64,000 nt of DNA, from assembly GCA_951406725.2 (NCBI GenBank), contig OX597819.1, positions 54,002,001 to 54,066,000 of the forward strand, given 5' to 3'. This document shows, piece after piece, positions 5,128 through 52,464 of the stretch; the first letter of the stretch is position 1; each line of letters opens with the position of its first letter. Below the pieces are notes generated by a model. That model had not been told where the DNA came from and did no database searches. It saw only the letters and a list, made by a program, of their open reading frames with translations. This DNA comes from Octopus vulgaris. Taxonomy: Eukaryota. The translations under genes were made by a program, and so were the position numbers.

Positions 5128-5364
5128 GGTTTCAACAAAGAACTAGAAGAGATTTACCGCATTCAAAAAAGCTATGCTATTCCAGACCTCGATTTAAGAC
5201 AGTCATTAAAGAAAGAAAACAAAGATTACATCCTTCCTATGTACCAAATGTTTCGAGACAAATATACTCAGTTGAACTTCACAAAAAATCCTGATAAATA
5301 TATCAAATACACCGTAGAAGATGTTGGCAAAATGATCGATAAATTTTTTGATGCATCTGCTTAA
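5128..5364 (+). CDS. EXOC7: Exocyst complex component 7 (Exo70), last exon
   Basis: Acceptor tttctag|GGT; encodes GFNKELEEIYRIQKSYAIPD...FTKNPDKYIKYTVEDVGKMIDKFFDASA*, the characteristic Exo70 C-terminus (AIPD, FTKNPxKYIKY, FDxSA). This frame is not in the ORF track. Confidence 0.96.
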   Translation, partial: GFNKELEEIYRIQKSYAIPDLDLRQSLKKENKDYILPMYQMFRDKYTQLNFTKNPDKYIKYTVEDVGKMIDKFFDASA

Positions 5365-11328: not shown

Positions 11329-11760
11329 TTAGTCTCCCTTCCTTTTCCTGTTGACAATGTTTTTAAATTTGTCTAGTTTATGTTTGTTAGTCCAATCAAT
11401 ATAATTAAGACTTTGGAAACCAGAAATCATACAATGATGATGCAAGAGGATTGGCAGTATCCCACCATGGTTGTCATTTAAGAGTTCATGATATTCATGT
11501 TTAGTAATGTCAGTTATTGTGTCTGAAATTAAAACACAAATGAATAACGCCTTGTCTTTAAGTTTTTGTAAATGTTCAGGTCGTTTAAATGATGTACCAC
11601 CAACATATTCCTCCAGTTCAATATTGAGAGGTTTTTTATCATTTAGTTCAATTTTTAGCAATTCATTTTGTATGTCTTTAGCTCTATCTTCATCTTTTTC
11701 ACAATAGACTATAATGCAATCATATTTGTCACTCTTATCACCTTCAGGAACGCCAGTCAT
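11329..11760 (-). CDS. TIR-only protein, TICAM (TRAM/TRIF)-like, ~143 aa
   Basis: Acceptor ttctcttgttttcag| opens the exon at 11788; ATG at 11760. YDCIIVYCEKDEDRAKDIQNEL (box 1/alphaA), ALFICVLISD (betaC), GILPILL (betaD), GFQSLNYIDW (betaE) follow TIR order and resemble TRAM FVILHAEDDTDEALRVQNLL...ALQTINAL. An upstream coding exon cannot be excluded. Confidence 0.8.
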   Translation of the reverse strand: MTGVPEGDKSDKYDCIIVYCEKDEDRAKDIQNELLKIELNDKKPLNIELEEYVGGTSFKRPEHLQKLKDKALFICVLISDTITDITKHEYHELLNDNHGGILPILLHHHCMISGFQSLNYIDWTNKHKLDKFKNIVNRKRKGD

Positions 11761-20059: not shown

Positions 20060-21980
20060 ATTTTATAAAGAACATTTCAGTACCGGTTTCGGTCATTTTG
20101 AGACCTTTTCAACTGTAACGATTAAATAATTAAATTTAGAAAAATTAAAAGAAAAGTTTTTTTAAAGGAATATTTATATAGTGTTCAAATATAAGTGGCA
20201 TTCTGCCTTTCTCTGTCTCCCTTGTTTGCACTTGTGTGTTCGAGTTGTGAATTCTTGGTAGGGTAGAAGAAGAAGAAGGTTGATGAGGAGAGGGGGTGGA
20301 AAAATTTGGGAGTGCCTTGATGGTCGTATTTTGAATGGTCAGTGGCGGCTAGCAGTTGCAGTTCAATTCAGGAGAATATTTCTATTGAAAGGTTTGTTTA
20401 TGGAATTTGCGTAGGTGTTATACTAAAAAGCATTAGTGATAAAGTTAAGAGGTAGAAGGTGGAGAAGAAGAAGAAGAAGAAGAAGAAGAAGAAGAAGAAG
20501 AAGAAGAAGAAGAAGAAGAAGAAGAAGATGACGATGTTGTTGATGATGATGATGAAGAAGAAGAAGAAGGAGAAGAAGAAGATGATGATGGTGATGATGA
20601 TGACGACGATGATGATGATAATGATGATGATGATGAAGAAGAAGAAGAAGAAGAAGAAAAAAGAGAAGGGAGAATATGAGTGGGTGAAAATAGTGAGGTG
20701 TTGTATGACTTGAAGTTGGCACGTTATGGATTATAGCTGTGATTGGGGCTGATTTGTAATGGATTCTTTGGAATGTAATATTTGTGTGTGTATTTCTTTT
20801 ATTCTAAAGTTGAGGTATATTAATTGTTTGTCATAGACCCGTTAAGAAGTGGCCTGTATTTTGTAATAAAGAGAGTTTCTTTATTTATTCGTTGTCTCGA
20901 GGTTGTATCGTCCCTAAATTGGTAGAGGGGGAAAATCCTGAAGCCTGGTGTTTTGTTGTTGGCGCAAGTATCTATGTGTTGGCTGAAAGCTATTTTTCTG
21001 TTTTGGGGAATTTTTATCTGGGATCTGTGGAGGGCCATTCTTTTATGCAAACTATTTTTTGTTTGGCCTATGTACTGCTCTTGACACCCGGAGCAGGTTA
21101 GTGAGTATATTAGGTTCTCCAAGGCACATGTGAAGTTGCTTTTCACTGTAAACCGTTGTCCCTGTTTGAAGGAGAACTCTGATCCCTCAATTAGATAATC
21201 GCATATCCCGCAATTGGGTCTTCCACATTTTTTTACTGTCGGCTTCTGTGTTGAAGAGTGTATTCGGGCTTGTGTTAGGAGACTTTTCATAGATTTAGGC
21301 TGTCTCTTGCTTTTTATGATCGTGTGTGTTTGGAGGATTGTGTTCATTCTGTGGTCTTTTTTTAGGAGGGGTATGTTGTGGAGGATGGTGCCGAAGGCTT
21401 CATTATTGAGAGGGTTGTGTGTGGAGATGTATGGTAAGGCTTTTGGTCGTAAGTTTTTCTTTGATTTGGGATGTCTCAGTTCCTTGATGTTAAGTTGAAG
21501 GGCACGTTGAATGCACATGTCAATAAGTGAAGGTGGGTAGTTCCTGGTGATAAGGGTATCTTTTAGTTCTTGTAGTCATGTGTCTCTGGTGTTTGCATTA
21601 GAAACTATAGTGCATATCCTTTTTGCTAGATTGAAGGGGATATTCATCCTGGTGTGTCTGGGGTGGCATGAATTGAATGGAAGATATTGCTTAGAATCTG
21701 TAGGCTTATAATATATTTCTGTTTCTATTACATTATTAGCTTTCTTAATGAGGATATCGAGGAAGGGGAGTTGTTGCTGGCTATATTCCATCGTGAATTG
21801 GATGTTTACGTCCAGTCCGTTTAAAATTTCTTGGAATTCTATGAGTTTTTCTATATTTTTATGCCAAAGAATGAAACAGTCATCTAGATATCTCTTCCAG
21901 TTGTTTTCTATGTAGATGGAGAAAGGGCTGCCATATCTTTCTAGGACCTTACGATACAGACTGATCTCTAGATATCCTAT

Positions 21981-21982
<2 letters not shown>
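20060..21982 (-). mobile_element. Penelope-like retroelement (RT C-terminus + GIY-YIG endonuclease), 5'-truncated
   Basis: WKRYLDDCF, LPFLDILI and YYKPT (RT); CGRPNCGIC and NLIYSLTCSGCQEQYIGQT...ETLFITKYRPLLN (GIY-YIG); one in-frame stop; hammerhead-like motif at 20078-20115 in the terminal repeat. Confidence 0.93.
20460..20662. repeat. (GAA)n/(GAT)n compound microsatellite
   Basis: More than 20 uninterrupted GAA units followed by mixed GAT/GAA. Confidence 0.95.
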
Positions 21983-22044
<62 letters not shown>

Positions 22045-22075
22045 GTGTATATATATATGTGTGTGTGTGTATGTG

Positions 22076-22106
<31 letters not shown>

Positions 22107-22149
22107 ATATATATGTGTGTGTGTGTGTGTGTATGTATACATATGTATC

Positions 22150-25023
22150 CTTAAATCCTTAAAAATGGGGCATCTACACTAATATGTGAATCCACCTCTG
22201 AAATATGGCACTTGGTCAACAAGGGAGTTCGATGCCGCTGCCCACATCTGTGTCTCCTGTCATGAGGTAGGTTCATCTGGGATCCCCGACAAGAAGAGAT
22301 CCAGTTTAGTTTTAAAGAAGCCCACATCCACACCATGCAAGTCTCTCAGGCATTTAGGGAGGATGTTAAAGAGCTGTGGTCCTCTGAAACCGAAGCTGTT
22401 GCAGTATCTGGTCCTGTATTTTGATGGTGATGTTGGAATCTTTGGCACCATGCAGTGACGCCCCATTCTGCGGTTGGGGTAACTTTGAATGCCAAAGTTT
22501 GGGAAAAGACCCTCCAGGATTTTCCAGATGTATATCACCGCATATCTCTCCCACCTTCGCTCTAGGGAGAAGAGGTTTAATACTTTCAGTCTTTCCCAGT
22601 AGCTGATATTTTGCATTGAGTCGATCTTCTTTGAATTACTTCAAGTTCTGATGTTAGTTTTATATTGTGTGGTAACCATAGTTGGGAGCCGTAGTCCAAG
22701 CGGCTGAGGAAAAAAGTTTTCCAGAGGACCATCAGTGTCTCCTTCTCTCTTGTTCTGAAAGTTCGGAGAATCCATCCAGCTAGCCGTCTGCATTTTATCA
22801 CCAGATTAGTAATATGCATCATTGCTCATATCAATGCCCAGGTCACGCACTGATTTTGACTCAGGGATTGCAATTCTTCCCGGGCCAGTGTATCCAGTCT
22901 GCATGTCATTTACCTTTGTGTGCCAGTAGCGCAGGGCCTGGAACTTACCTGCATTAAACTGCATGTTGTTGTCCTCAGCCCACCTGTATATTGTATCCAA
23001 CTCCTGTTGCAGATGTGCAATATTTCCAGGGTTTTGTATTGTGTGGGAGACTTTTGTGTCATCTGCATAGCTAGCAAGGGTGGCCATCTTAGCAACTGAG
23101 GGCATACCTGAAAGAGCCGCTATGAACAGCAGTGGCCCCAAGACAGTGCCCTGTGGAACACCGCTTGTTATTTGTGTTTCCTTGGAGGTGGCTCCATTGG
23201 TCACAACTGCCTGTCTTCTATCTTTTAGGAAGTTGTGCAGCCACTCTCCAAGTTTTCCGCCTATACCAAGACCATGCAGTTTGTGACAAATCAGACCATG
23301 GTCGACTTTATCAAAGGCTTTTGCAAAGTCAAGATATATCACATCCACATTTGAGCCATTTAGTAGCTGTTTTAACACCCAGTCATAGTGTTGCAGGAGC
23401 TGTGTTAGGCAGCTTCAACCTGGTCGAAATCCATGCTGGGTGTCAGTCAGCAAGTCATTTTCTTCAAGGAACATGATTAGTTTCTTGCGGACTATTCGTT
23501 CCATGACTTTGCTGATGTGTGAGGTCAGAGAGATAGGCCTATAATTTTTAGCATCTGCTCTGCTACCTCCCTTATGGATAGGGCATATTACCCCCTCTTT
23601 CAATTTGACTGGGAGCTTACCACTTGCAAGAAAGCTCTGAAAAAGAAGCTGTAGCAGTTTTGCAAGGGCTCGTTTGCATGATTTGAGAAGGATCGCTGGA
23701 AATCCATCAGGTCCAGCAGCTGAGTTTGTGTCAATCTCATCTATGGCCAGTGTGATATCATCATCTTCAATGTTGATGTACTCAATGTTTGCCTCTTTGG
23801 CCACAGGTAAAGTGGCAAAGAATTCTTCTGGGTTGTTTACTTGCCTGTGTCCTAGAGGTGTAGTGAACACGCTTTGGAACTGTTCATTCAGTATTTCACT
23901 TATCCTCGTAGGATTTCCTGTGAGAGAGCCATCTTTTTGGAAGAGAAGTCCTATTCTCTGGTGCACTGTGGCTGTCTCTTTGGCAAACTTAAAGAAAGCT
24001 TTAGGGTTTGACTTTATATTTTCTATTACCCAAGCTTCTTTATCTGCTCTCTCCTTTTCATGAGACTGATGCAGACTTTTCTCAAATTCCATTAGCATTC
24101 TCTCGAGCTGAGACGTCTCACCACTTTTGGTGTGCTTGCTCAGGTGGTTCGCAATCCTTGTCCATCGTCTCATAAGAATCTTCCTTTCTCTAGGGATCCT
24201 GTTTTTGTTTTTGTGTGTGCTGGCCCTGCACACTGGGACATATTTGTCACATATGGCTTGTATTATGGACATGAAGTGTTTGTGTTTCATGTTAATGTCC
24301 AGTGTGGAGAGACATTTAGGCCAATCCTGTTTGAGGATCTCTTTCTCGATCAACTTCCAATTTGCTTTATGGAAGTTTAAGTTGGAGAGATTGTGGATGC
24401 TTCGTATAGGCTGTGTATCTGTGGGGGCTTTTGGTCCATACATAGACAGCTCTATTATGTTGTGATCCGAGATCATTGTCGGCATCACTTTAACATTATG
24501 GATAATATCCATATTGTTTGTGAAGCAGAGATCCAGTATATTATCTGCCTTTGTTGGTTGCAGCACTATTTGCTCCATGAAAGAGGCATTTGTGAGATGG
24601 AGCAGGAACTCTGCCTGTGCCTGCTGATGGTGTGTCATCCCTGGGAGCATCTTCCCCCCAGGCCATTCCACATTGGGGAAGTTAAAGTCACCCATGAAAA
24701 ATACACTGTTGTGTTGTTCCAGATTGGTGAGAACTTCTCCTATTTTTGTTAGGCAGTCTTCAAACATGCCTGAGTGAATTACGGCATCTGGTGGGCGATA
24801 TGTAGTACATATGACGATATTCAGTTGTCTTATGTGTACAATTTGAGTGTCACACACTGAGTTTGAATATGACAACAGGACCTGGGGCGTGAGGTCATCT
24901 CGGATGTACATTGCAACTCCACCATGGCTCCTCCCTTTTCTATCTGAGCGTATGACTGCATATTGCTGTATGTGTATTTCTGCATCCCCTATATCGGGTC
25001 CAAGATGCGTTTCTGTGAGTGCC
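22150..25023 (-). mobile_element. CR1-group LINE ORF2 (AP endonuclease + RT), frameshifted
   Basis: ETHL...GGVAMY...YRPP...GDFN...SDH (endonuclease); NYRPISLTS, QHGFRPG, YLDFAKAFDKV, SGVPQGTVLGP, YADDTK (RT), spread over four ORFs. Confidence 0.93.
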
Positions 25024-25034
25024 ATGTGTATGTG

Positions 25035-25122
<88 letters not shown>

Positions 25123-25125
<3 letters not shown>

Positions 25126-25706
25126 TCATCATCATCATCATCGTTTAACATCCGCTTTCCATGCTAGCATGGGTTGGACGGTTCAACTGGGGTCTGGCAA
25201 GCCCGAAGGCTGCACCAGGCCAGTCAGATCTGGCAGTGTTTCTACAGCTGGATGCCCTTCCTAACGCCAACCACTCCGAGAGTGTAGTGGGTGATTTTAT
25301 GCGCCACCGACACAGGTGCCAGATGAGGCTAGCAGACGGCCACGCTTGGATGGTGTTTTTTATGTGCCACCGACACAGGTGCCGGACGAGGCTGGCGAAC
25401 GGCTACGATCGGATGGTGTTTGTTACGTGCCCACAGCACGGGGCCAGTCGATGCGGTACTGGCTACGGTCCCGTTCGGATGGTTTTCTTATGTGCCACCG
25501 GCACTGGTACCACAAGGATACAAATTCCATTGATATTCATCTATTTGATTTGATTCGATTTGACTTGACTTTCACTTGCCTCAACAGGTCTTCACAAGTA
25601 TCACAAGCAGGAAGGTATGCACAGGTGGAGTGACTACGTCCCAGGTAGTGGCCATGGGTTATGGCTTCACTAGTCTTGCCGGGTCTTCTCACGCACAGCA
25701 TACTTC
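25123..25706 (-). mobile_element. RTE LINE 3' end
   Basis: (CAT)n tail on the plus strand at 25123-25142, 3' UTR with tandem motifs, short ORF end KYAVREKTRQD*; (TA)n on both sides. Confidence 0.88.
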
Positions 25707-28894: not shown

Positions 28895-31690
28895 TGATGA
28901 TCGTCATCATCGTTTAACATCTGCTTTCTATGCTAGCATGGGTTGGACGATTTGACTGAGGGCTGGCAAACCAGATGGCTGCACCAGATTTCAATCTTGA
29001 TCTGGCAGTGTTTCTACTGCTTGATGCCCTTCCTAACGCCAACCACTCCAAGAGTGTTGTGGGTGCTTTTACATACCACCGGCACGGGGCCAGTCAGGCA
29101 GTACTGGCAACGACCTCGCTCGAATCTTTTACACATGCCACTGGCACAGGTGCCAGTAAGGCGATGCTGGTAACGATCATGCTCGAATGGTACCTTTTAC
29201 ATGCCACCGGCACAGAGGCCAATTAGCCGCTCTGGCAATGATCATGCTCAGATGGTGCTCTTAACACCCTACTAGCATGGGGCACAAGTGCCAGTAAGGC
29301 GACGCTGGTAACGATCACACTCAAATGGTGCCTTTTATGTGCCACTGACACGGAAGCCAGTTAGCCGCTCTGTCAGCGATCACACTCGTATGGTGCTCTT
29401 TGCACCCTGCTAGCACGGATGCAAGCAGGGTTTTAGCGTCCAAAGAAGGAAAAGGTACACATAAGTGGGCTGGTTACGCCCCTGGCATAGGCCACAAGGT
29501 TATGGTCTCATTTGGCTTGCTGGGTCTTCTCAAACACAGCATGTTTCCAAAAGTCTCAATCACTAGACATTTCCTTGGTGAGGCCTAAATTTCGAAGGTT
29601 GTGCTTCACCACTTCATCCCAGGTCTTCCTGGGTCTACCTCTTCCACAGGTTCCCTCAACCGCTAGGATGTGGCACTTTTTCATACAACTATCCTCATCC
29701 ATTCTCACCGCATGACCATACCAGTGCAGTCGTCTCTCTTGCACACCACATGACCATACCAGTGCAGTCGTCTCTCTTGCACACCACATTTGATGCTTCT
29801 TAGGTTCAACTTTTCTCTCAAGGTACTTACACTCTGTCGAGTATGAACACTGACATTACACATCCATCGGATCATACTGGCTTCATTCCTTGCGAGCTTA
29901 CACATGTCCTCAGCAGTCACAGCCCATGTTTCACTGCCATGTAGCATGGCTGTTCGTACACATGCGTCATACAGTCTACCTTTTACTCTGAGCGAGAGGC
30001 CCTTTGTCACCAGCAGGGGTAAGAGCTCTCTGAACTTTGCCCAAGCTATTCTTATTCTAGCAGCTACACTTTCAGTGCACCTTCTCCCGCTACTGACTTG
30101 ATCACCTAGATAACGAAAGCTATCAACTACTTCTAGTTTTCCTCCCTGGAATGTGGCGGAAGTTGTTCTCTGCGCATTTTCAGAGTTTAATGCTCCCGAC
30201 CATCTGCCACATACAAAAACTATCTTCCCAGTTAGCTTTCCTTTGATATTACTGCACCTCTTATGTGTCCATAGCTTACACTGGGTACATCTTATAGAGT
30301 TTCTACCTACGTCTCTACTACAGATTGAGCAGGGCCATCTACCTGAAGGGATTTGTGGTTTGCCTGCCTTCGTACTTATTAGGACTTTGGTTTTAGCTAG
30401 GTTGACTCTAAGGCCCTTTGATTCTAAACTTTGTTTCTACACCTGAAACTTCTCCTCTGATAGTGACTCAGCAATTAGAGCAAGGTCATCAACATAGAGG
30501 AGCTCCCAGGGGCATCCTGTCTTGAATCCCTCCGTTATTGCCTGGAGGACTATGATGAATAGGAGGGGGCTGAGGACTGAACCTTGGTGGACCCTTATCT
30601 CTAGCCTGAATTCTTCAGTGTACTCGTTGCCAACCCTCACCTTACTGACAGCGTCCCTGTACATGGCTTGCACGGCTCTCACTAACTATTCATCTATCCC
30701 TAGTTTCCTCATTGACCACCAGATAAGGGATCAGGGGACCCTGTCAAAGGCTTTCTCCATGTCAATGAAAGCCAAGTACAGGGGCTTATCTTTGGCTAGG
30801 TATTTCTCCTGCAGCTGTCTTACCAGAAATATGGCATCAGTGGTGCTTTTCCCTGGCACGAAACCAAACTGCATCTCATCCAAGCTGACTCTTTCCTTAA
30901 TCAGTTGGGCTATGACCCTCTCCATAACATTCATTACCTGATCCAACAGCTTGATACCTCTGTAATTATTTGTATCTAAAGTGTCACCTTTACCTTTGTA
31001 GCAGTTGACTATTATGCTGCTACACCAGTCATTGGGTAGGACTCCTTCGTGTATCACCTGGTTAACTATACGGGTGACTAGGCTATAGCCGACACTGCCA
31101 GATATTTTGAGCATCTCTGCAGTGATTCCTGGTGGGCCGGGGGCTTTCCCTGTCTTCATACTTTTAATTGCTTTATCTACCAAGGTACTGTCAACTCGGA
31201 TAGCTGGTCCCTCTGTTGGGTCGACATTCGGCAGACTCTCTTTCTCCCATTCATTTTCTTTATTCAGCAGCCTTTCATAGTGGTGTCTTCAAACCTCTCT
31301 CTTTGCAGCCTCATTTAGTGCAAGTGAGCCATCATCCATGCGAACACATTTCGCTCCAACATCATGATTCTCTCTCACAAACTGTCTTGCAACACAAAAT
31401 ACCTCAAGTCTTTGGTCCTATGTCTCTAAATCTCTGTCTGTTTGCAGGATCTTTAAGTCTCCAGACCCTTCTTCTCTTTGCTGGTCATCTTCTGGGCATC
31501 TATTTAGCCCTGATCCTGAAGTCACTAACTACCAGTCTATGTTGTGGGGTACATTCTTTGCCTGGGAAGGTTTTGGCATTTATAAGCAGCCATCTTTACC
31601 TTTTTCTGGTAAGGATGTAGTCAATTTGGCTAGTGTGTCTGCCAGAGCAGTGGGTGACTAGGTGACTGGCAGGTTTTCTGAAGTTAGTAT
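28895..31690 (-). mobile_element. RTE LINE, ~2.8 kb, disrupted
   Basis: GKAPGPPG, NYRGIKLL, QFGFVPGKSTTDAIF, FIDMEKAFDRVP, VHQGSVLSPLLF, LYVDD and the post-RT region; 38-bp tandem duplication near 29711-29788; (GAT)n tail. Confidence 0.95.
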
Positions 31691-31695
31691 TAGTA

Positions 31696-31744
<49 letters not shown>

Positions 31745-32104
31745 AGAGTTTATGAAAAAACAAAAGATGAAGTCAGGTGGTGTACAAAACAAACAGATGT
31801 ATTAGTATAGCACTCAGGAATAGAAAAAGCCTTTTACGTTTCGATCCTACGCTCTTCTACAGAAAGGGACACAGAAAAAACAAGGAGAGAAAAAAATATG
31901 TGTAGTAGTTAACTATCATGGCGACTTTATATATATATTAAATTAGTGGACATGCTAAAAGGAGCAGTCAGAGCCCAAACCACAGTTAAGAGTAATTTCG
32001 AAGGGGACGAAAAATAAAAACATTTCCTATAGTTACCACTTGTACCTAGGTTTCAAACATTAATGAACAAATAAAATAATTTGTTATCTGTGTTCCTGGT
32101 TTAC

Positions 32105-33730
32105 AATGCAGATAACTAGGCCATATCCCACACCACCAGATATTTTAAGCATCTCAGCAGTAATTCCTGGTGGGCTGGGGGCTTTTCCTGGCTTCATACC
32201 CTTAATTACTTTATCTACCAGGGAGCTGTCTATTCGGATAGCTGGTTCCTCTACTGGGTCAACATTTGGCAGGCTCTCCTCCTATTCATTCTCCATGTTC
32301 AGTAGTCTTTCATAATGGCTTCTCCAAGGCTCTTTCTTTTCAGAATCATTAAAAGCAAGTGCACCATCATCTATGTGGACACATTTCTCTCCTGTGACAT
32401 CACAATTTTCTCTCTGTCTTGCAAACCGAAATACTTCAGTTCTTTGGTCCTCACGTCACTGAACATTGGCAAACTTCTTCTCTTCCGCTTCGCCCTTGGC
32501 TATGTATACCTGCCTCCCTTCTGGCTACCTGGTACAGTTCCCTGCTACCCACCCTCCAGGCTTTCTAGGCCTGTTTCTTTGCTCTAATGTCTACCATACT
32601 ATTCCACTACCATGTAATTCTAGGTCTGGAAGGGACTTTGCACCATCCGCAGACTTGGTCTGTGGCACTCAGCAAGCTGTCCCATAGGAATTTCCAGCTA
32701 CCTTCTATGTCTGATGTCTGTAGTTCCTCCTCCCTCTCATCAAATTTCTTGATGGGGATGTCCCTAAATCTCTGACCATGTAAAGGGTTCTTTAGCTTCC
32801 AAATCCTTCTTTTTTGGATTGTTCTGCTTCTTGGTATCCTTCTGGCCTCGAGCCTAAAGTCACTAATGACTAGCCTATGCTAGCAGAGGGGTACATTCTT
32901 CATCAGGGGTGGGGCTGTATTTAAGAGCAACCCTGCGTCCCGCTGTCTGGTGAGGATGAAATCAATCTGGCTAGCAGAGTCACCTGATTGATAGGTTATC
33001 ATGTGGCTATCTGGCTTCCTGAAGTTAGTGTTGCAGATTAAAAGGTTACAACATGCATCACAAAACTCCAGTAGCTTAGTTCCCTCATCATTTCGGGAAC
33101 CAATACCATGGCCCCCGTGTATGCTAGTGAAGATACCAGATTGCCACCCAACATACCCATTAAAATCTCCAGCCACAAAGATAAGGTCATTGCCACTTGT
33201 CTTTGAAGTAGCCTGTAGAAGGGTATCATAAAAATGAGCTTAAGTATTCTATCGCATACTCTGACAACCTCTATGACTTTATCTGACATGCCCATTAAAA
33301 TCTCCAGCCACAAAGATGAGATCATTGTCACTCATCTTTGGGGTAGCCTGCAGAAGAATATCATAAAAGTGATCCTTCTGTTCATTTGATAGGCCCCCTT
33401 GTGGGACGTAGGCAGAGATAATTGTAGCTATACCATTCTGCAAGACTAGCCTGAGTTTAATCACTCTATTGTACACCCTCACTACCTCTATGACCTTATC
33501 TACCCATTTCTCTGCAAGAAGTATGCCCACACCCCTTATTTCATCACTATTACCTTCCCAGAAGAGTTTATACCTATTGCTTTGCCTGTGAGAACTCTAG
33601 CTGAAGCTCCTCTCCACCTTACCTCTTGTACACAACATACATCAATACATCTCCATTCAAGCATCTTGACACTCTCGTTAGACCTACCCTTCAATGTGCC
33701 TACATTTACAGTGCCAACTCTGAAAACTAG
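32105..33730 (-). mobile_element. RTE LINE 5' part (endonuclease), different subfamily, disrupted
   Basis: VGTVNVGTL, CVQEVRW, IISAYVPQ, AGDFNGHV, SQIDFIL; internal duplication at ~33.15-33.33 kb. Confidence 0.92.
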
Positions 33731-34779
33731 GAAAGAGATATAGGAGGTAACACAGGAAGGAGAGATGCTATTCAACACCTGTAAAGAAGGTTCCCATGAT
33801 CATTTGGTAACAGACGTCATAATAGTTGTTCTTGCTTTTAATCTACCGTCATTCATACATTAGAATTGTTAAAGTTGTTGCCTCTACTGGGGAGTGGGAG
33901 TAAGGAAGCATTGTATATGAAAGTGTTTGGGGCATTGTAAATATAAGCATTAATATAAGCATTATGAGCACTGTGGGTGTAAGCATTACTGATGCTACAG
34001 ATATAAGTGGAGAAAAAAAAGAAAAGAGAGAGAGAGGTGGTAAGTGGGCTGCTATCTGGTTTAGTTAGTCCAGAGATGTGGGATGGGGTGAGAAAGGAAA
34101 GGGTGGCAAGATTACCAATATAAGAAGAGATAGAGAAAGGGCAACTGGATGTCCGGTGAGAGAAAGAGATTTCTGGTATTGGTGGTGGGGCTGGGAAAGG
34201 GTGGGTGCGACCACAGACACGGAAAAGTCACTTTAAGGGGTAGAGCAAACAAAAAAGAATTATTTTAGAGAAAAGTACAAAATGTGTATATACATGTAGC
34301 CAAGAAACAAGGTTAGTCATTTTAGGGGCAGAACAAACAAGAACGAATTATTTTAGAGAATAGACGAGTTTGAATGAATGAAGCATTTAAAAATAGCAAG
34401 AGAAATTCTTAGCTTGGCTGTGCATATTTTCAAGTGTCATGAAACGGCCAAACACATGGAATAAACTAATAAAAGTCTGAGAGGTGGGGGAACAGGTGTG
34501 GAGGTGACAGCCGGAAATGGATGAAGATGGCAGACTTTGCCCTAAGCTAGTAAGAGAAATAGTAGGGAATAGCCATTGCAACAAGATATAAGAGAGATAC
34601 AGATTGGAAAAAAATTATTTTAGCAAATGGTATGAAACATGTATATATATATATATATTTGTAGTCAAGAGGGACAGATTGCAATTTGGAAATTATTTGA
34701 TGAGGGACATTATGTAATTAGGGTAAGATATTGTGAAGTAATCAAGTAGTTCAATAGAATTGATAATAAGGATAGACAT

Positions 34780-36015: not shown

Positions 36016-36061
36016 ATGGAAGGCACCAGTTCAAATACTGTTTCTAACATTTGTTGTTCAG
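36016..36061 (+). CDS. TIR-RHIM-repeat protein, first coding exon
   Basis: Acceptor ttttatag| at 36008, ATG 36016, MEGTSSNTVSNICCS+G, donor CAG|gtatgt; phase 1 matches the acceptor at 38163. Confidence 0.7.
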
Positions 36062-38163: not shown

Positions 38164-38663
38164 GGTCTTCCTCTTCCAACTCCAAAAACAGTCATGAATT
38201 TGGTAATTGTGTCTTTTATCATGATGATGATGAGACATTAGCTACTGATGTTGTTGACCAAATTTCCAAGGTATCAAAATGTATGCTATATTCGGAGATT
38301 AAGACAAGAAAAAATAACTTTTTTGAGCATTTAAGTGATATCACACAAAATTGTACTTATATTATTTTGCTCATAACAGAAAATATGCAAAAGGATAAGC
38401 AAACTCAGCATCTGAGAGATGAATTAATTCGAATTGCACCAAAAAAAATATTTATTATAACAAATGGAGAAGTAAACAAAAACGATTTTGGAATTGCTTC
38501 TTATAGAAAAATAGATTGGCGAATACCAGACAAAAATAAAGCGAGAAAAATCCAAGCATATTTTAAAGATACAGAACATGAAATAGCATCACAAGAACCA
38601 CCTAAACCCATCATTTATATTGCAAATGCCATCATGCAAGCAGGTAACAATAATGTAGTTAAT
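38164..38663 (+). CDS. TIR-RHIM-repeat protein, TIR + RHIM-like exon (TICAM/TRIF-like)
   Basis: ttttag|GG...AAT|gtaagt. CVFYHDDDETLATDV, CTYIILLITENMQKD and KARKIQAYF resemble TRAM SAWTILLLTENFLRD and TRIF FARKVANTF; ends in PIIYIANAIMQAGNNNVVN. Confidence 0.85.
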
Positions 38664-40599
38664 GTAAGTAAAAATATTATTATTTTTTTTTTAAGTTGTT
38701 GTTTTCTTTTTCTTATTTGCTGGTTTCAGTCATTCAACAATGTCCATCCTATCTTCAACACCTTGTTAAGCAGAATGACCTTAGAGCCTATTTTAAGCTT
38801 GGTACTTACTGTATCAATTTTTGCTTGTTGAATCACTAGGTTACATAAACAAATGTAAGCATGGCTACAGACATCAATGTACACTGTGTGTATGGCAATT
38901 TGCTGTGCTTGAGAAAATACATCATGCTAAATAAAATCATGGCTATCCACACATACAGGCACGTCCTTTATGGCCATAAAGCCACTCCCTTCTCCCCTGT
39001 CCTCTGACAAAACTCACCACAAGTCATCTCCCCAAAACACCACCACCCACTGCAGGCCTCTAGTTCCTCTTACCATCACTTGCTATCTCTAAATATCTCC
39101 CCTCACATGCTTATGGAACATCTCTGTCCCAACTCTACTACTTATACTCCCCTCCACTGTTCCCTATGCATCAGCTCTCACTCTTATTGTCTCTATCTTT
39201 CTCTCTCTCTCTCCCACCTCTCTCCACTTCCTTACCCTACTGGGTTAGCCAAGTATCTTCTCTGGCAATCCCATGTTGGTGGCTCATAGAAAAGCACCTA
39301 TGTTGGTGTCATGTAGACATACACCCGTGTTGGTGCCATGTAACAAGCACCCATGCCAGTGCTGTGTGTTTGTGCACCCATGCTGGCTCTATGTAAAAAA
39401 GCATGTGTGCTAGTGCCACAGGAAAAGGTACCCACGTTAGCATCACATGAAAAAGTCCCCATTCCAGCTTCATGTAAAGAGCACCCAGCAAACTCTGTAA
39501 AGTGGTTGGTGTTAGGAAGAGCATCCAACCATAGAAACCTTGCCAGAACAGATGACTGAAACCTAGTGCAGCCCTTCTAGCTTGCCAGCTCCTGTCAAAT
39601 TGTCCAACCCATGCCAACAGATGTTAAATGATGATGATGATAATTCACACACACACACACACATATATCTACACACATACACACACACACATATTGTGCA
39701 TGTAATGTGTATGTTTGAGGACAGCTGTATAAACAAGTGCATGGAACTTGCAAAAGAGGGAGAATGAAGAGAACATGGGAGGAAAAAACAAGGGCTGATC
39801 TCCAGATACTGAACCTCACAGAGGTGATGACAATGGACTAGGCTGACTAGTGATGTGAAGTTCTTGAGAAGATCCATCTACCTCAGCAAAACTGAGTTCT
39901 GCAGGTGTTGTGTATTATGTGCTCACCACTCAAGTTATATTGTTTCATTTTCCTGCAATAGACCACACTACAGCTCGTCATGCACTATGCCTGTCTCTCC
40001 CCAACTCCTACTCCTGCTGTATGACTTCTCTTTGTCCTCCTCCTCCTGTCAACTGTATCATTACTCTCCTACCTCTGCATATCCATCCCCCCCATTCATG
40101 ACTCATTGGTTATTACCCTTTAATCCCAACCAACTCCTTTTATAGTTGCACAAACTGCCTCTCCATCCCTTTGTTTTCTACTCCTCTTACAATTTTGCAA
40201 TAACCCCACCCACTTATGCTTACTTTGTACCTCATGGAGTATCCTAGACACCTCATCTCTTATCTATCTCTTTGCAGTTCATTCTGATCATTCTCTCCCT
40301 CCTCTACAAAATGTGAGGAAACAGGTAAATCTTCTACAAGTAGCTACTCTGCCTCCACATCTCTCATACTCTAATCCCACTTTTCCTAGCATAAAACCAA
40401 ACACCCCTCCCTCAGGGTTCATAGTCTTGCAAGGTGCATGGCAACATCAGCAGCACTGGTTTCACATAAAAAGCAACCAGTATACACTGTAAAGTCGATT
40501 GTGCTAGGAAGCAAACATTGAAGCATAATGCAGTTCTTGAACCCATTGGAATATGTCAAACCATCAAACCCATCTATGCCAGCTTGGAATAAATGATGA

Positions 40600-40641
<42 letters not shown>

Positions 40642-40645
<4 letters not shown>

Positions 40646-42127
40646 TCATCATCATCATCATCATTGTTTAACGTCCACTTTCCATGCTAGCATAGGTTGG
40701 ATGATTTTGACTGAGGGCTGGCGAACCAGATGGCTGCACCAGGCTCTAATCTTGATCTGGCAGAGTTTCTACAGCTGGATGCCCTTCTTAACGCCAACCA
40801 CGCCGAGAGTGTAGTGGGTGCCTTTTACGTGTCGCCGGTACGGGGCCAGTCAGACGGTACTGGCAACGACCTCGCTCGAATTTTTTTACACATGCCACTG
40901 GCACAGGTGCCAGTAAGGCGATGCTGGTAACGATCACGCTCGAATGGTGCCTGTTATGATGTTCTTGGCATACTACTAGCAGGGGCACGTACCAGTAAGG
41001 CGACGCTGGTAACGATCACACACGAATGGTGCCTTTTATGTGCCACTGACACGGAAGCCGGTTAGCCGCTCTGTCAACGAACACACTCGTATGGTGCTCT
41101 TTGCACCCCGCTAGCACGGATGCCAGTCATCGAATTTGAGTTTAATTTTGATTTCACTTGCCTCAACAGGTCTTCGCAAGCAGAGTTTAGTTTCCAAAGA
41201 AGGAAAATGTACGCACAAGTGGGCTGGTTACGCTCCTGGCATAGGCTATGAGGTTATGGTATCATTTGGCTTGCCGGTTCTTCTCAAGCGCAGCATATTT
41301 TCAAAAGTCTCGGTCACTAATCATTTCCTTGGTGAGGCCTAAAGTTCGAAGGTCGTGCTTCACCACTTCATCCCAGGTCTTCCTGGGTCTACCTCTTCCA
41401 CAGGGTCCCTCAACCGCTAGGGTGTGGCACTTTTTCACACAGCTATCCTCATCCATTCTCGCCGCATAGCCATACCAGTGCAGTCGTCTCTCTTGCACAC
41501 CATATCTGATGCTTCTTAGGTCCAACTTTTCTCTCAAAGTTGAGTATGCACACTGACATTACACATCCCTCGTATCATACTGGCTTCATTCCTTGTGAGC
41601 TTACGCATGTCCTCAGCAGTCACAGCCCATGTTTCACTGCCATGTAGCATGGCTGTTCGTACACATGCGTCATACAGTCTACCTTTTACTCTGAGCGAGA
41701 GGCCCTTTGTCACCAGCAGAGGTAAGAGCTCTCTGAACTTTGCCCAAGCTATTCTTATTCTAGCAGCTGCACTTTCAGTGCACCTTCCCTCGCTACTGAC
41801 TTGATCACCTAGGTAACGGAAGCTATCAACTACTTCTAGTTTTCCTCCCTGGAATGTGGCGGAAGTTGTTCTCTGTGCATTTTCAGAGTTTAATGCTCCC
41901 AAGCATCTGCCACATATAAAAACTATCTTCCCAGTTAGCTTTCCTTTGATATTATTGCACCTCTTATGTATCTATAGCTTACACTGGGTACATCTTATAG
42001 AGTTTTTACCTACGCCTCTACTACAGATTGGGCAGGGCCATCTACCTGAAGGGATTTGTGGTTTGCCTGCCTTCGTACTTATTAGGACTTTGGTTTTAGC
42101 TAGGTTGACTCTAAGGCCCTTTGATTC
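40642..42127 (-). mobile_element. 5'-truncated RTE LINE in the intron
   Basis: FRYLGD...LSLRVKGRLYDACVRTAMLHGSETW...GRGRPRKTWDEVV; (CAT)n tail next to (TA)n; close relative of the copy at 28.9-30.4 kb. Confidence 0.93.
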
Positions 42128-42166
42128 TATATACACCCTATATACATACCTACGTATGTATGTATA

Positions 42167-42979
42167 TAGGGTGCAGTGAATAAACTGTTGTCTAAATTAT
42201 GCAAAAATGAAAAGAATGACATTTCATTTTAACAGATATATTTACCAAAATATCTTGAAATACTAGAGAGTAAATTTATTCAATAAAATCGCTATTGGCT
42301 TCAGCCACGGCCTCTCCGGCAACTTTTCTGGACGGTTTCCTTGTTTAAGTTGGTGTCATAATCTTTGCCTTCAGTTCATCTTTAGTGTTACAAAGGGTTT
42401 TGTTGGCCTCTCACTCAACTGCGCCCCACATATAGTAATCAAGGTGGTTGCAGTCTGGGGAGTTAGGTGACAAGATGTTAGTGATGGTGTAGTCACAGAA
42501 ATTGTCTGACATCTATATCTGGGTTCTCCTGCTTGTGTGGTATGGTGCAGAGTCCGTTTGCCAGGCATAGTGTCTTCCAGCAGTACTACCCCCTCCAGGC
42601 ACTTGATGTAGGCTTCTGTATTGAGTTTGAGGCCACATGGGAAGATGAATGGAAGCATAACTTCACCATCACTAATGATCACTCCAAACTCCATGTTGTT
42701 GACTGGGTGTTTGATTTTTATCACTCTCAGTACATGTCCTGAGATTGACACCCAATCATTCTGAAATGTTCATATTGGAGCTTCCAGTGTAAATGCCAAG
42801 CAGCACAGCATGTTCTTTCCAAATTTCTGGCAGAGTGAATTGCATTGTGGTGCTGTTTTTCTCACAGACTGTGCCCAAGTGACCCTACTATACTGTGTAG
42901 TTGACAAAATCAAAAACAAACAATGTGCATACACGAAATTAAAAATATAAAATGGCACCTATTTATCCATTGCACCCTG
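42167..42979 (-). mobile_element. Tc1/mariner-superfamily remnant
   Basis: TIRs agggtgcagtgaataaa / tttatccattgcaccctg with TA flanks; KHPVNNMEFGVIISDGEVMLPFIF...NTEAYIKCL and, in another frame, PNSPDCNHLDYYMWG. Confidence 0.85.
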
Positions 42980-44807
42980 TATACTTGCAACCCCCATCCC
43001 TTATTTCATTCATCTCTTGTCAATGTTACCTTATAAACAATATATATTGAAACTGTATTAAAATTTCTCATTTAAAAAAAACATTATCTTTGAAAAATTA
43101 GAATTTATTGTTTTCCATTTAAATTTGTTTATATTTGCTTTTATCCTGATAGTTTGTTTTGGCACTCCATCATTACCATCTTTATCTTGTTCCCAACAAC
43201 TCTTTCCCACTCCTACATAATATGTGGTAGCCACATGTCTCCTCTACAACAAGACACCTCTGCTTGTCCCTCTATCATATTTTAGCTTTTTAATAGTTGG
43301 CATAAAGCTACATCCCTCTCTTGAATATCCACCACCACCCTATTTAGTAGTAAGAGCTTTTTCCTTTTCTTTTTTCCCTATTCCTTTTCTATCTTGCAAG
43401 TTGCTTGGCAACCTCACTAGTGCCATTGGCATGAGAAAAAGGATTCAGTAAGCATTGTAAAGTGGTTGGCCGTGAGAAAGAGCATCCAGTTGTAGAAACC
43501 ATGCCAAGTTGACACTGGAGCTCAACACAACCATGTGGGTTGACAGGTCATGTCAAACTGTCTCATACATGCCAGCATGGAAAACAGATATTAAATGATG
43601 ATGATGATAATGATTAAATATATACCCATGCTAGCATGGAAAGCGGACGCTAAATGATGATGATGATGATGTATGTGTGTGTGTGTGTGTGTGTAGTCAA
43701 CGGATGAGATCCAGAGATTCTCAGTATAGAAAACACTTCGTAGCACTCAAATGATTTGAACTTAAACTCTGATGTCTTTATGAGGGACCAATTTCCCAGG
43801 GTAAAGAGTGGCTGTAAGGAGAATCAAGGTGAGTGGATATGGAGGCAATTATACAGATAAACAAATTAAATATAACAGCTTGGGTTTGATATACAAAATG
43901 TAAGAAAGAAAGCAAAGACTGAAGACTTTCAGAGAATGAATATTTAAGTATAAATATATAGATATTTATATTAACAGATCAAACTTATACAGTGTACATA
44001 TGACAGAGAGGATTAAAGGTAGAAAGGTAAGGTGTTAATAGTCCAACAGCTGCTTCTGGGGTTTCAGAGATCCATTATAATAACTCCCTTATCCCTTTTC
44101 ACCCATCCCTGCCTCAACACTCCTCACATCCCCACCAAACCTATTTCCTCCCTCTAATACTGCTTGCTCTCCACATTTAATCATTCCCCCTTTAAACTTC
44201 TCTGCATTACGATCTGAAATGTAAGGTCATTTTCTAGCTTGATGACTCTCTCTCTCTCTCTCTCTCTCCCTCCCTCAGTGTGTGTGTTTTTTTTGTGCAG
44301 TCATTCACACATGTCAAGATTGAACTTCTACTTGCACACCATTGTTACTTTCTCTCGACCTTCTTCAGTATTTCTTAACTCACCTAGTTAACAATAATTA
44401 TAAATTACAACAAATGCATATTTTGAATAGCCTCGGCACTGCTATTTATTGCTACCCCTATTGGTAACCCTTCCATTCCTCTAATGCATTCATAGTCCTG
44501 CTTCTCTGTCAGTTTTTTAGATATCACATTTACATCTTTAGTTTGCTTGTCATTTCTAAAGTCCACAATCTTCTCTTTTGCCACAGACTGTATACGGCAA
44601 CTTCCCACACAAAATTTAAATGTCATGTACTTGGTTACTAATTTGTATATTGCTATGTTGTATTTTATACTACCGGACTGAAAATTGCCCTCTTTTAGAT
44701 TTTGAAGCTCCTTGACAAACTACCATGAGAATTAGGTTATTATTTTCTAAAGACATCTTGTTCTAAACCTTTGGTTCTTGTTTCTAGAATTATAATGCAT
44801 AATACTT

Positions 44808-45292
44808 ACTGTAAATTTTCGAGTATAATCCGCATTTTTTCCCCAAAAATTTAAAGGTCAAAATCCCTAGTGCGTATTATACACAAGGTTAAAAATGAAA
44901 ATTATTTTCTAAGAAATGTTCGAGAGTCTATTTGCTGTCCGGCAATGTTTATTCAGACGCATTTTGTGATGTCGGGTGTGAAAATACCTTAAGTTAAGCC
45001 TGAAAGCAATGAAGTCATAAAAGAATCATCCATAACTTGCAGTAAGCAACATTTATTAAATGTTATTACTGTTATTTCTTTATTTTCTGCAAACAAAATG
45101 CACAAAAATGCTACACATTTGCATTATGTTATATATACAATAATAATAAAGGACGTTACCGTATACATTTTTACAAACCAAGGACGTTATATAAACCTCC
45201 TTGATTCAAGTTAGAGAAGGGATGTGTATTATACACAAGGTTTAGGATTTTCAGAGGTACAGCCCCATAAAAATCCCCTGCGGACTATACTA
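44808..45292. mobile_element. Possible pogo/Tigger-like non-autonomous element
   Basis: Starts tactgtaaattttcgagtataatccgca; recurrent tgcgtattatacac motifs; ends tgcggactatact (inverted to the left end). Confidence 0.45.
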
Positions 45293-45345
45293 AATTATCG
45301 ATAAAAACTATTCTAAGTCATTTATTTATGTTTCATTTTTTTCAG

Positions 45346-45373
45346 TTGTATGGGGTCACTGAGAAACCTAGAG
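45346..45373 (+). CDS. TIR-RHIM-repeat protein, 28-nt micro-exon
   Basis: tttcattttttttcag|TTG TAT GGG GTC ACT GAG AAA CCT AGA G|gtaagt; phase 0 in, phase 1 out, exactly bridging 38663 and 51407; encodes LYGVTEKPR. Confidence 0.75.
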
Positions 45374-46011
45374 GTAAGTGAAAGCAAAATCAGTTCTTCT
45401 GAAAGGATCACTAAAAATGTAGCACTTGTTATTCCATCTCAACTGCAAACCCAAACAGTATCATATCTAAACTGTTCTAACTTTGCTAGACTCTCTGAAT
45501 TTGCCCAAATTCTTGAGGCTTCTGTTGTTGCTTGTATACAATGTGAAGCTACAGATATTGTCACCGTTGTATATACTTTTGAAAATAATGTCACTTAATA
45601 AACTTAGTAGGTAATTAGTAAACTACCAGCAAATTCTAGTACTTTCAACATTCAACAACTATCTTTTGATGGACCTGCATCTTTTCTTGTCTTAATGTCC
45701 TTAATTATTAACTTTACATGTATAAATCTTTATTAGATATCCATTCATATTCCTTTTTTTAGTCACCTCTTTCATGCTTATTTCTTTTCATTGTTACTGC
45801 GACTAAGTGTGCCATTGTCATGTCCAATACAATTTTATTATATGATATTCTAATTCATATAAACACAATATGCTTTTATTCAGAATAATTCATGATCTAA
45901 TCACATTGAATAAAACGTTTTCAAACTCATTCATGTTTGCTCTTTTCTTCACTGAGTGAATCTGTCATCATATTTCTTCTGTAGCCTTCTGGAGTTACAG
46001 TGTGTAACAGA

Positions 46012-51406: not shown

Positions 51407-52464
51407 ATATGAGGGAATTAATGAATCTAAATATGAATAAAATTGAACCAAATGAAGTTGAACCAAATAAGGTGGAACAGATTACAGCTGGACTGAATAA
51501 GACTGAACTGAATAAGGTCAAACCGAGTAAGGCTGAACTGAATAAGGTTGAACCGAATAAAGTTGAACCAAATGAAGTTGAACCAAATGAGGTTGAACCA
51601 AATAAGGTGGAACAGATTACAGCTGGACTGAATAAGACTGAACTGAATAAGGTCAAACCGAGTAAGGCTGAACTGAATAAGGTTGAACCGAATAAAGTTG
51701 AACCAAATGAAGTTGAACCAAATGAGGTTGAACCAAATAAGGTGGAACAGATTACAGCTGGACTGAATAAGACTGAACTGAATAAGGTCAAACTGAGTAA
51801 GGCTGAACTGAATAAGGTTGAACCGAATAAAGTTGAACCAAATGAGGTTGAACCAAATAAGGTGGAACAGATTACAGCTGGACTGAATAAGACTGAACTG
51901 AATAAGGTCAAACCGAGTAAGGCTGAACTGAATAAGGTTGAACCGAATAAAGTTGAACCAAATGAAGTTGAACCAAATGAGGTTGAACCAAATAAGGTGG
52001 AACAGATTACAGCTGGACTGAATAAGACTGAACTGAATAAGGTCAAACCGAGTAAGGCTGAACTGAATAAGGTTGAACCAAATAAAGTTGAACCAAATGA
52101 AGTTGAACCAAATGAGGTTGAACCAAATAAGGTGGAACAGATTACAGCTGGACTGAATAAGACTGAACTGAATAAGGTCAAACCGAGTAAGGCTGAACTG
52201 AATAAGGTTGAACCGAATAAAGTTGAACCAAATAAGGTGGAACAGATTACAGCTGGACTGAATAAGACTGAACTGAATAAGGTCAAACCGAGTAAGGCTG
52301 AACTGAATAAGGTTGAACCGAATAAAGTTGAACCAAATAAGGTGGAACAGATTACAGCTGGACTGAATAAGACTGAACTGAATAAGGTCAAACCGAGTAA
52401 GGCTGAACTGAATAAGATTGAACCAAGTAAAGCTGAACTGAATAAGGCTGAACCAAATAATTAA
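51407..52464 (+). CDS. TIR-RHIM-repeat protein, terminal pentapeptide-repeat exon
   Basis: Strong acceptor (T-rich)ttccag|AT; phase 1 gives G+AT=Asp and continues into ORF 51409-52464 (MRELMNLNMNKIEP...NKAEPNN*). Spliced CDS 46+500+28+1058=1632 nt, 543 aa. Confidence 0.72.
51436..52461 (+). repeat. 15-bp tandem repeat with 105/120/135-bp higher-order units
   Basis: Unit AATAAGGTTGAACCR; the marker attacagctggactg occurs 8 times at spacings 135,135,120,135,135,105,105. Confidence 0.97.

What the first reader, a model, noticed from the sequence alone, without database searches (positions are those of the whole stretch)
38610..45373. Variant RHIM (MQAG core) split across an intron and completed by a 28-nt micro-exon
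Seen: the motif reads I-Y-I-A-N-A-I-M-Q-A-G-N-N-N-V-V-N at the exon end, and the micro-exon 6.7 kb downstream adds L-Y-G. That matches the trailing pattern of RIPK1 (IQIGAYNYMEIGG). Known: the canonical core is (I/V)Q(I/V/L/C)G and forms functional amyloid. Inference: MQAG is a non-canonical core that may have different partner specificity or weaker assembly.
Basis: partly seen in the sequence, partly recalled or inferred. Interest (0 to 1): 0.7.

Follow-up and report, generated by a model that had tools for sequence, protein, structure and literature searches.

The report
Octopus TIR adaptor, RHIM-like tail
An unstudied octopus gene encodes a protein with a predicted immune-signalling TIR fold followed by a short conserved motif that resembles, but fails the definition of, the amyloid-forming RHIM switch, and it likely acts as a self-assembling immune adaptor of a layout so far described mainly in chordates.

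Summary
The sequence facts hold. Exon 38164-38663 ends IIYIANAIMQAGNNNVVN, and a 28-nt exon (45346-45373) continues in frame; gene models of three Octopus species show the same join. The core is not split: the intron falls six residues after the glycine, and the micro-exon adds one conserved aliphatic residue.

The motif follows a divergent TIR domain (VIA Z 12.7 to TRIF, tied with other TIRs). This is the TIR-then-RHIM layout of TRIF/TICAM, and a TIR-only paralogue lies head-to-head 24 kb away.

The motif is a real conserved island: it aligns without gaps to Argonauta behind a linker with 0 of 14 identities, and 0 of 2000 shuffles score as high. Argonauta has YVQG for MQAG, so the RHIM glutamine is not kept in register; the fixed residues are N, G, N, V, N. 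The Asn-to-Gly spacing is one residue short, Pfam RHIM does not match, and no partner protein with the motif was found.

Verdict: not a RHIM family member as defined. It is likely an octopod TIR adaptor with a RHIM-like, probably amyloid-type stacking motif. Assembly is untested.

The parts
36016..36061 (+). Coding exon 1 (ATG, 15 codons + 1 nt, phase-1 GT donor)
   Evidence: tblastn of the O. bimaculoides orthologue; splice sites and frame
38164..38663 (+). Exon 2 (500 nt): TIR-fold domain, linker and most of the motif
   Evidence: contigs align exactly to its borders (table 8)
38199..38567 (+). Divergent TIR-fold domain, residues about 28-150; Glu102 in helix C kept in 5 of 5 aligned proteins; no BB-loop proline
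   Evidence: Pfam TIR_2 E=0.011, below cut-off; ESM Atlas TIR clusters 0.91; VIA Z 10.9-10.8; Argonauta model Z 12.7, rmsd 3.0, 121 aligned to TRIF TIR
38610..38663 (+). Conserved RHIM-like motif, exon-2 part (residues 165-182); MQAG at 38634-38645
38664..45345 (+). Phase-0 intron, 6,682 nt, rich in repeat elements; falls six residues after the motif glycine
45346..45373 (+). 28-nt micro-exon (residues 183-191 + 1 nt): last aliphatic residue of the motif, then a charged/proline boundary; skipping shifts the frame and stops one codon later, removing the tail
   Evidence: same join in annotated proteins
51407..52464 (+). Last coding exon: about 350 residues of 5-residue Asn/Lys/Val/Glu/Pro repeats, of variable length in Octopus and absent in Argonauta
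11329..11760 (-). Neighbouring 143-aa TIR-only gene, a distant paralogue without the motif, head-to-head with the motif gene
   Evidence: Pfam TIR_2 E=3e-5; cluster members in three Octopus species; profile match E=3.6e-4 among 11,793 frames; hhalign E=7.4e-5 over 119 columns

Best explanation
The gene encodes a protein with a predicted TIR domain followed by a conserved 19-residue motif that likely stacks into an amyloid-type beta-sheet polymer, so that it would work as an immune-signalling adaptor built like TRIF/TICAM while not being a RHIM by definition. Shown: the exon structure, the motif, its conservation as an island across octopods, and its departure from the RHIM signature. Predicted: the TIR fold. 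Inferred mechanism: TIR-TIR contacts with a receptor, or with the neighbouring TIR-only paralogue, cluster the protein; the clustered motifs (two or three short beta-strands around the Gly-x-Asn turn, with Asn ladders) stack in register; the stack locks the signal on and recruits a partner with a matching motif or activates the TIR domains. The intron position is incidental: the micro-exon supplies the last aliphatic residue and, through its frame, decides whether the repeat tail is attached.
For: Fold: the best VIA matches of both models are TIR domains. For the Octopus model the top 11 rows are all TIR-family (Z 10.9-9.3); for the Argonauta model TRIF scores Z 12.7, Hydra TRR-2 12.5, TIR-STING 12.4 and TRAM 12.1, all tied. 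Island conservation versus Argonauta: TIR 50/123 identical, linker 0/14, motif 8/21; the best ungapped 21-mer of the two tails scores 43 against 15.1 +/- 5.6 in shuffles, 0 of 2000 as high. Versus O. bimaculoides the motif's exon-2 part (15/18) is better kept than the TIR (83/123) or linker (7/14). Composition: 0-1 charged or Pro residues, 6 Asn/Gln and 8-9 hydrophobic residues in 19, in all four orthologues; 25 of 15,864 background windows (overlapping; the 10 printed lie in TLR leucine-rich-repeat frames) meet this. Both models leave the motif outside the domain at pLDDT about 30. Layout: TRIF and amphioxus TICAM are TIR plus RHIM (passages); RHIM-like motifs with altered consensus are known in invertebrate immune proteins. 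Lead only: an ESM Atlas cluster of bacterial TIR proteins, 17% with RHIM, scored 0.88.
Against: No assembly was measured. No profile match to any known amyloid-signalling motif: Pfam, PDB sequences with the motif profile (0 hits at E<=10), RHIM and Ses_B genome searches do not ring at this locus, and ESM features of the Argonauta motif give no usable hit. No second octopus protein with the motif was found: 1 match, itself; none in 364 kb around the gene; none in 20 kb upstream of 20 of 44 death-domain matches, best E 0.73. No octopus entry is in a published RIPK1 list. The family rests on only four distinct orthologues, one of them distant; nothing was found in squid, cuttlefish or other molluscs. 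Model confidence is modest (mean pLDDT 51-52; TIR 60-87).
Confidence: 0.45

Rival explanations
1. The motif is a non-amyloid docking strand or beta-hairpin that binds a folded partner or folds back on the TIR domain.
For: Conservation shows constraint only. The Argonauta model draws two short strands around the Gly-Ala-Asn turn, at low confidence. No matching motif was found in another octopus protein, which a homotypic relay would need.
Against: Neither model packs the motif onto the domain. The fixed residues are Asn, Gly and aliphatics with almost no charge, typical of beta-arcade amyloids rather than of specific linear docking motifs (own knowledge).
Confidence: 0.3
2. One reading: MQAG is a true but variant RHIM core that co-assembles with RIPK1-type RHIMs.
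For: Q, G and the Asn three residues after Gly fit in three Octopus species (relaxed pattern). Natural tetrads vary at positions 1 and 3, and all tested variants still drove cell death (passages). RHIM-bearing RIPK1-like proteins exist in a mussel and a brachiopod. Each orthologue group matches one canonical spacing (Octopus Q-to-G, Argonauta N-to-Q), as a one-residue deletion from a RHIM could give (inference).
Against: The tetrad and the extended published pattern are not met in any of 4 orthologues. Q is replaced in register in Argonauta and the G+3 Asn is Ser. No Pfam RHIM match. The only RHIM hit in this genome (of 70 candidates scored) is a 16-residue frame, E=2, with no exon context seen.
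Confidence: 0.15
3. The MQAG resemblance is chance in a tail with no special role.
For: The relaxed pattern was chosen after the fact and occurs 3 times in 400 kb of six-frame DNA, once with a canonical tetrad; the one inspected lies in a non-coding repeat-like stretch. In a ranking of 21-residue windows by similarity to Argonauta the motif is only 95th of 172.
Against: Gap-free conservation behind an unconserved linker, 0 of 2000 shuffles. The part is kept while the repeat tail changes length several-fold or vanishes.
Confidence: 0.1

Closest known systems
TRIF/TICAM1 and amphioxus bbtTICAM
   Same: TIR-fold domain followed by a short RHIM-type segment in a disordered tail. TRIF ranks first or second in both VIA searches and is the only TIR chain hit by the family profile in PDB sequences (E=0.85).
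   Different: Z scores tie with other TIRs and the sequence hit is not significant. The TRIF-type BB-loop motif E-D-F-x-x-P-G is absent, there is no long N-terminal region, and the motif fails the RHIM pattern. TRIF homologues are reported as absent from non-chordates, though one review figure labels scallop adaptors TRAM/TICAM2.
RHIM of RIPK1, RIPK3, ZBP1, TRIF (Pfam PF12721)
   Same: About 19 residues, central Gly, Asn before and after, aliphatic residues at the ends, next to a signalling domain.
   Different: Core MQAG/YVQG instead of (V/I)-Q-(V/I/L/C)-G; Gln not conserved; invariant Asn at G+2, not G+3; Asn-to-Gly spacing 6, not 7; no profile match.
Insect/crustacean cryptic RHIM (PGRP-LC/LE, Imd; VxxG)
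   Same: Protostome immune context; a Gly-centred motif that does without the Gln.
   Different: No VxxG in any of the four orthologues; attached to a TIR domain rather than a PGRP or death domain.
Bacterial BASS3 / fungal PP amyloid signalling motifs, including TIR2-linked ones
   Same: TIR plus a terminal amyloid-type motif; an ESM lead at 0.88.
   Different: The shared G-phi-Q-phi-G signature is absent; no adjacent NLR with a matching motif was seen; no Ses_B match at the locus.

Membership tests
RHIM | Core tetrad (V/I)-Q-(V/I/L/C)-G | tested here: not met
   0 of 4 orthologues: MQAG in three, YVQG in Argonauta (definition)
RHIM | Extended pattern [IV]Q[ILV]GxxNx[MLI] | tested here: not met
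   0 of 4; a relaxed form fits 3 of 4 (pattern)
RHIM | Gln and Gly fixed across orthologues (true of every natural variant listed) | tested here: not met
   Gly invariant, Gln replaced by Val in register in Argonauta
RHIM | Upstream Asn five residues before the Gln, seven before the Gly | tested here: not met
   Asn invariant but six before the Gly in all four (RIPK numbering)
RHIM | Match to Pfam PF12721 | tested here: not met
   No match for the exon, four proteins or four motif stretches or in the genome search; HMMER filters drop weak hits and the model is only 22 positions
RHIM | Short uncharged Asn/aliphatic segment in a disordered region beside a signalling domain | tested here: met
RHIM | A second protein in the organism with a compatible motif | tested here: inconclusive
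   None found, but the searches were partial
RHIM | Cross-beta fibrils and core-dependent homotypic binding | not testable with these tools
   Needs bench work
TICAM/TRIF adaptors | TIR fold | tested here: met
   (predicted models)
TICAM/TRIF adaptors | TIR closer to TRIF/TRAM than to other TIR classes | tested here: inconclusive
   Top Z scores tied within 1; sole TIR sequence hit is TRIF at E=0.85; no such hit
TICAM/TRIF adaptors | BB-loop motif E-D-F-x-x-P-G | tested here: not met
   No proline between strand B and helix B in the aligned orthologues (motif)
TICAM/TRIF adaptors | C-terminal RHIM | tested here: inconclusive
   RHIM-like motif in that position, failing the RHIM signature
TICAM/TRIF adaptors | TRAF6-binding and pLxIS motifs; binding to TLR TIR and RIPK | not tested
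   No call addressed these
Cryptic RHIM (cRHIM) | VxxG core | tested here: not met
   0 of 4 orthologues (definition)
BASS3/PP motifs | G-phi-Q-phi-G signature and a paired NLR carrying the motif | tested here: not met
   No Gly before the core; no partner in 364 kb; signature

The most novel reading that the evidence does not exclude
Octopods have a TRIF/TICAM-type, MyD88-independent adaptor pair: a TIR-only bridging protein and, head-to-head with it, a TIR protein whose RHIM lost one residue and its glutamine requirement and now forms a new class of signalling amyloid. That would move the TIR-plus-amyloid-motif adaptor out of the chordates into molluscs and show that the RHIM glutamine ladder can be replaced by asparagine ladders.
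Probability: 0.15. Interest if true: 0.8.

Novelty: new variant of a known kind. Interest (0 to 1): 0.45.

Why it matters
TIR-plus-RHIM adaptors are described for chordates, and molluscan genomes are reported to lack TRIF/TICAM. A conserved amyloid-type motif behind a TIR domain in octopods would be a candidate for the missing non-MyD88 branch. The pair MQAG (Octopus) and YVQG (Argonauta) is also a natural experiment on whether the RHIM glutamine is needed for stacking, testable with two synthetic peptides. The gene is annotated only as uncharacterised or by its repeat tail. If the peptide does not assemble, it remains an unannotated lineage-restricted TIR gene of modest interest.

Tried and rejected
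Structure and complex prediction. Four copies of residues 157-193 gave no verdict (score 0.02, mark 0.32, alignment not used); this is evidence neither way. No amyloid-fibril chain appears in the fold searches, but these covered only the TIR part.

RNA. No holder is listed as RNA on record. The laid contigs did not show the micro-exon joint in the visible rows, and the joint to the last exon was not examined.

Homologue searches. Six distinct searches found only Octopus and Argonauta, plus one low-complexity false hit, P0006 (in public proteins; in this genome). The neighbour has no longer relatives and no other copy in the genome.

Partner hunt. The Pfam RHIM genome hit L002 was rejected as chance (16-residue frame beside a microsatellite). 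A canonical-looking VQCG stretch in L128 was rejected: wrong strand relative to the death-domain gene, repeat-like context, no splice acceptor seen. The two other relaxed-pattern hits (L116, L126) were not inspected. The Ses_B hits (E=8.75) were ignored. 24 of 44 death-domain matches had only 1.5 kb flanks scanned or none. PDB sequence hits to picornavirus capsid, EcfA2 and CCDC12 were treated as noise.

Literature. No paper on this gene or on a cephalopod RHIM appeared in the listings; only top rows were listed and subscription papers are not held. The amphioxus TICAM paper is not held. The bioRxiv supplement with RHIM/BASS3/PP logos could not be seen and may bear on motif comparison. The first search of the eLife supplements covered 12 of 31 files.

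Earlier findings. None for this place, sequence or genome.

Rejected ideas. The micro-exon as a switch for the core: both skipping and intron read-through leave an aliphatic residue at position 183. The motif as part of the TIR fold: not supported by either model.
Full report
1. Observation. The window is octopus DNA; its proteins are identical or nearly so to O. vulgaris models, which therefore are not independent evidence. Bases 38610-38663 read IIYIANAIMQAGNNNVVN and end at a phase-0 GTAAGT donor; 45346-45373 is a 28-nt exon reading LYGVTEKPR with consensus splice sites. With exon 1 (36016-36061) and a last exon (51407-52464) the frame is open for 543 codons. RefSeq models of O. sinensis and O. 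bimaculoides carry the same join. In 3 of 4 runs laid, a contig aligns exactly over exon 2 and continues with other letters, as a spliced transcript would; the library type is not on record and the micro-exon joint itself is not in the rows shown. Skipping it gives an isoleucine and a stop at residue 183, and reading into the intron gives a valine there, so the exon controls the tail, not the core.

2. What the gene is. Residues 28-150 are a divergent TIR domain: Pfam TIR_2 below cut-off (E=0.011), ESM Atlas TIR clusters at 0.91, and AlphaFold models (mean pLDDT 51 and 52) whose best structural matches are TIR domains. For the Octopus model: TIR-STING Z 10.9, TRIF 10.8. For the Argonauta model: TRIF Z 12.7 (rmsd 3.0, 121 aligned), Hydra TRR-2 12.5, TIR-STING 12.4, TRAM 12.1, all tied; Foldseek gives 67 matches at E<=0.001, many of them TIRs but also flavodoxin-like chains. 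A five-sequence profile hits one TIR chain among PDB sequences, TRIF, at E=0.85; four other queries did not repeat this. The TRIF-type BB-loop proline motif is missing. A glutamate in helix C is kept in all five aligned proteins; such a residue is needed for TIR NADase activity but is present in over 70% of TIRs, and I did not check its structural register. After the motif comes a 5-residue repeat tail of about 350 residues here, about 60-75 in O. sinensis, 150-215 in O. bimaculoides and none in Argonauta. A 143-residue TIR-only paralogue lies head-to-head at 11329-11760 and has neighbouring gene numbers in O. sinensis. Relatives were found only in Octopus and Argonauta.

3. Is the motif real? 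Yes. Against Argonauta (split probably between about 46 and 101 million years ago, inferred from the bracketing nodes) the TIR is 50/123 identical, the linker 0/14 and the motif 8/21 without gaps; the best 21-mer score between the two tails is 43, with 0 of 2000 shuffles as high. It is no more conserved than an average TIR window (rank 95 of 172). Invariant columns are N170, G176, N178, V180, N182 and E188. All four versions have at most one charged or proline residue, six Asn/Gln and eight or nine hydrophobic residues in 19.

4. Is it a RHIM? Not by definition. The tetrad (V/I)-Q-(V/I/L/C)-G and the pattern [IV]Q[ILV]GxxNx[MLI] are met by 0 of 4 orthologues. A published table of natural RIPK1/3 tetrads allows much variation at positions 1 and 3 (MQIG, VQSG, LQQG) but always keeps Q and G, and MQAG is not in it. 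The upstream Asn is six residues before the Gly, against seven in RIPK3. Octopus keeps the canonical Q-to-G distance and Argonauta the canonical N-to-Q distance, which a one-residue deletion from a RHIM could explain; that is inference. Pfam RHIM, the PDB sequence set and ESM features give nothing. A relaxed pattern is rare in shuffles (0.37%) but was chosen after the fact and turns up 3 times in 400 kb of six-frame DNA.

5. Mechanism. I favour (0.45) a TIR adaptor whose tail motif stacks into an amyloid-type polymer after TIR-driven clustering, working like TRIF or amphioxus TICAM without being a member of either family. Uncharged Asn ladders, aliphatic rows and a fixed turn glycine are the features of beta-arcade signalling amyloids, and invertebrates are known to use RHIM-like motifs with altered consensus. 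The main gap is the partner: no other protein with this motif appeared in a genome search with the motif (1 candidate, itself), in 364 kb around the gene, or upstream of 20 of 44 death-domain matches, and a published RIPK1 list has mussel and Lingula entries but no octopus. These searches are partial. Rivals: non-amyloid docking strand (0.30), true variant RHIM (0.15), chance (0.10).

6. Literature seen. PMC4262963: parts 1-2 of 4 of the text. PMC12119088: passages, a term search of supplement 4 and all of supplement 8. Passages only: PMC9440496, PMC9334734, PMC9444067, PMC6043800, PMC13506858, bioRxiv 10.1101/2020.01.06.895854 (100), PMC12521104, PMC7104719. PMC7075850: passages and section 55 (89, 105, 106). 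Search listings showed no paper on this gene or on a cephalopod RHIM. The labels Exo70/EXOC7, FADD, MyD88 and PIDD for other loci rest on Pfam hits plus my own recall. Two earlier AI notes describe a sea-squirt TIR-RHIM adaptor and a fish CARD protein with a non-RHIM amyloid-type motif; they are untested leads, not support.

7. Verdict. Observation partly confirmed; interpretation partly supported. This is a new variant of a known kind: an unannotated octopod TIR protein with a conserved RHIM-like motif that has dropped the RHIM signature. Interest 0.45; 0.8 if it proves to be a molluscan TRIF-type adaptor with a glutamine-independent signalling amyloid (probability about 0.15).

Noticed in passing
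window 11329-11760 (-): 143-aa TIR-only gene, distant paralogue of the motif gene, head-to-head 24 kb away and present in three Octopus species; could be a bridging or inhibitory partner.
   Followed up: partly
window 51407-52464 (+): Exon of 5-residue charged repeats in higher-order 120/135-nt units; its length differs several-fold between Octopus species and between annotated isoforms, and it explains the misleading database names.
   Followed up: partly
window 45374-45382 (+): One O. vulgaris model (P0007) reads through the micro-exon donor and stops two residues later, giving a tail-less 193-aa form; exon skipping would give a 183-aa form.
   Followed up: partly
window 5128-5364 (+): Last coding exon of an Exo70 (exocyst) gene, useful as a synteny anchor (Pfam E=5.6e-24).
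   Followed up: no
L039-L062 (G000 C26, C29, C30, C31, C7): Large expanded family of similar C-terminal death-domain exons; one has an ankyrin-repeat exon upstream (L119). Not characterised.
   Followed up: partly
L043, L050, L059 (G000 C14, 75.54-75.60 Mb): Three tandem single-exon genes that look like CARD plus death-domain adaptors (my reading of the sequence; only the death domain was scored).
   Followed up: no
window 20820-25163, 29556-33799, 41301-42196: Broken retroelement-like reverse transcriptase and endonuclease fragments fill the intergenic stretch and the long intron.
   Followed up: no
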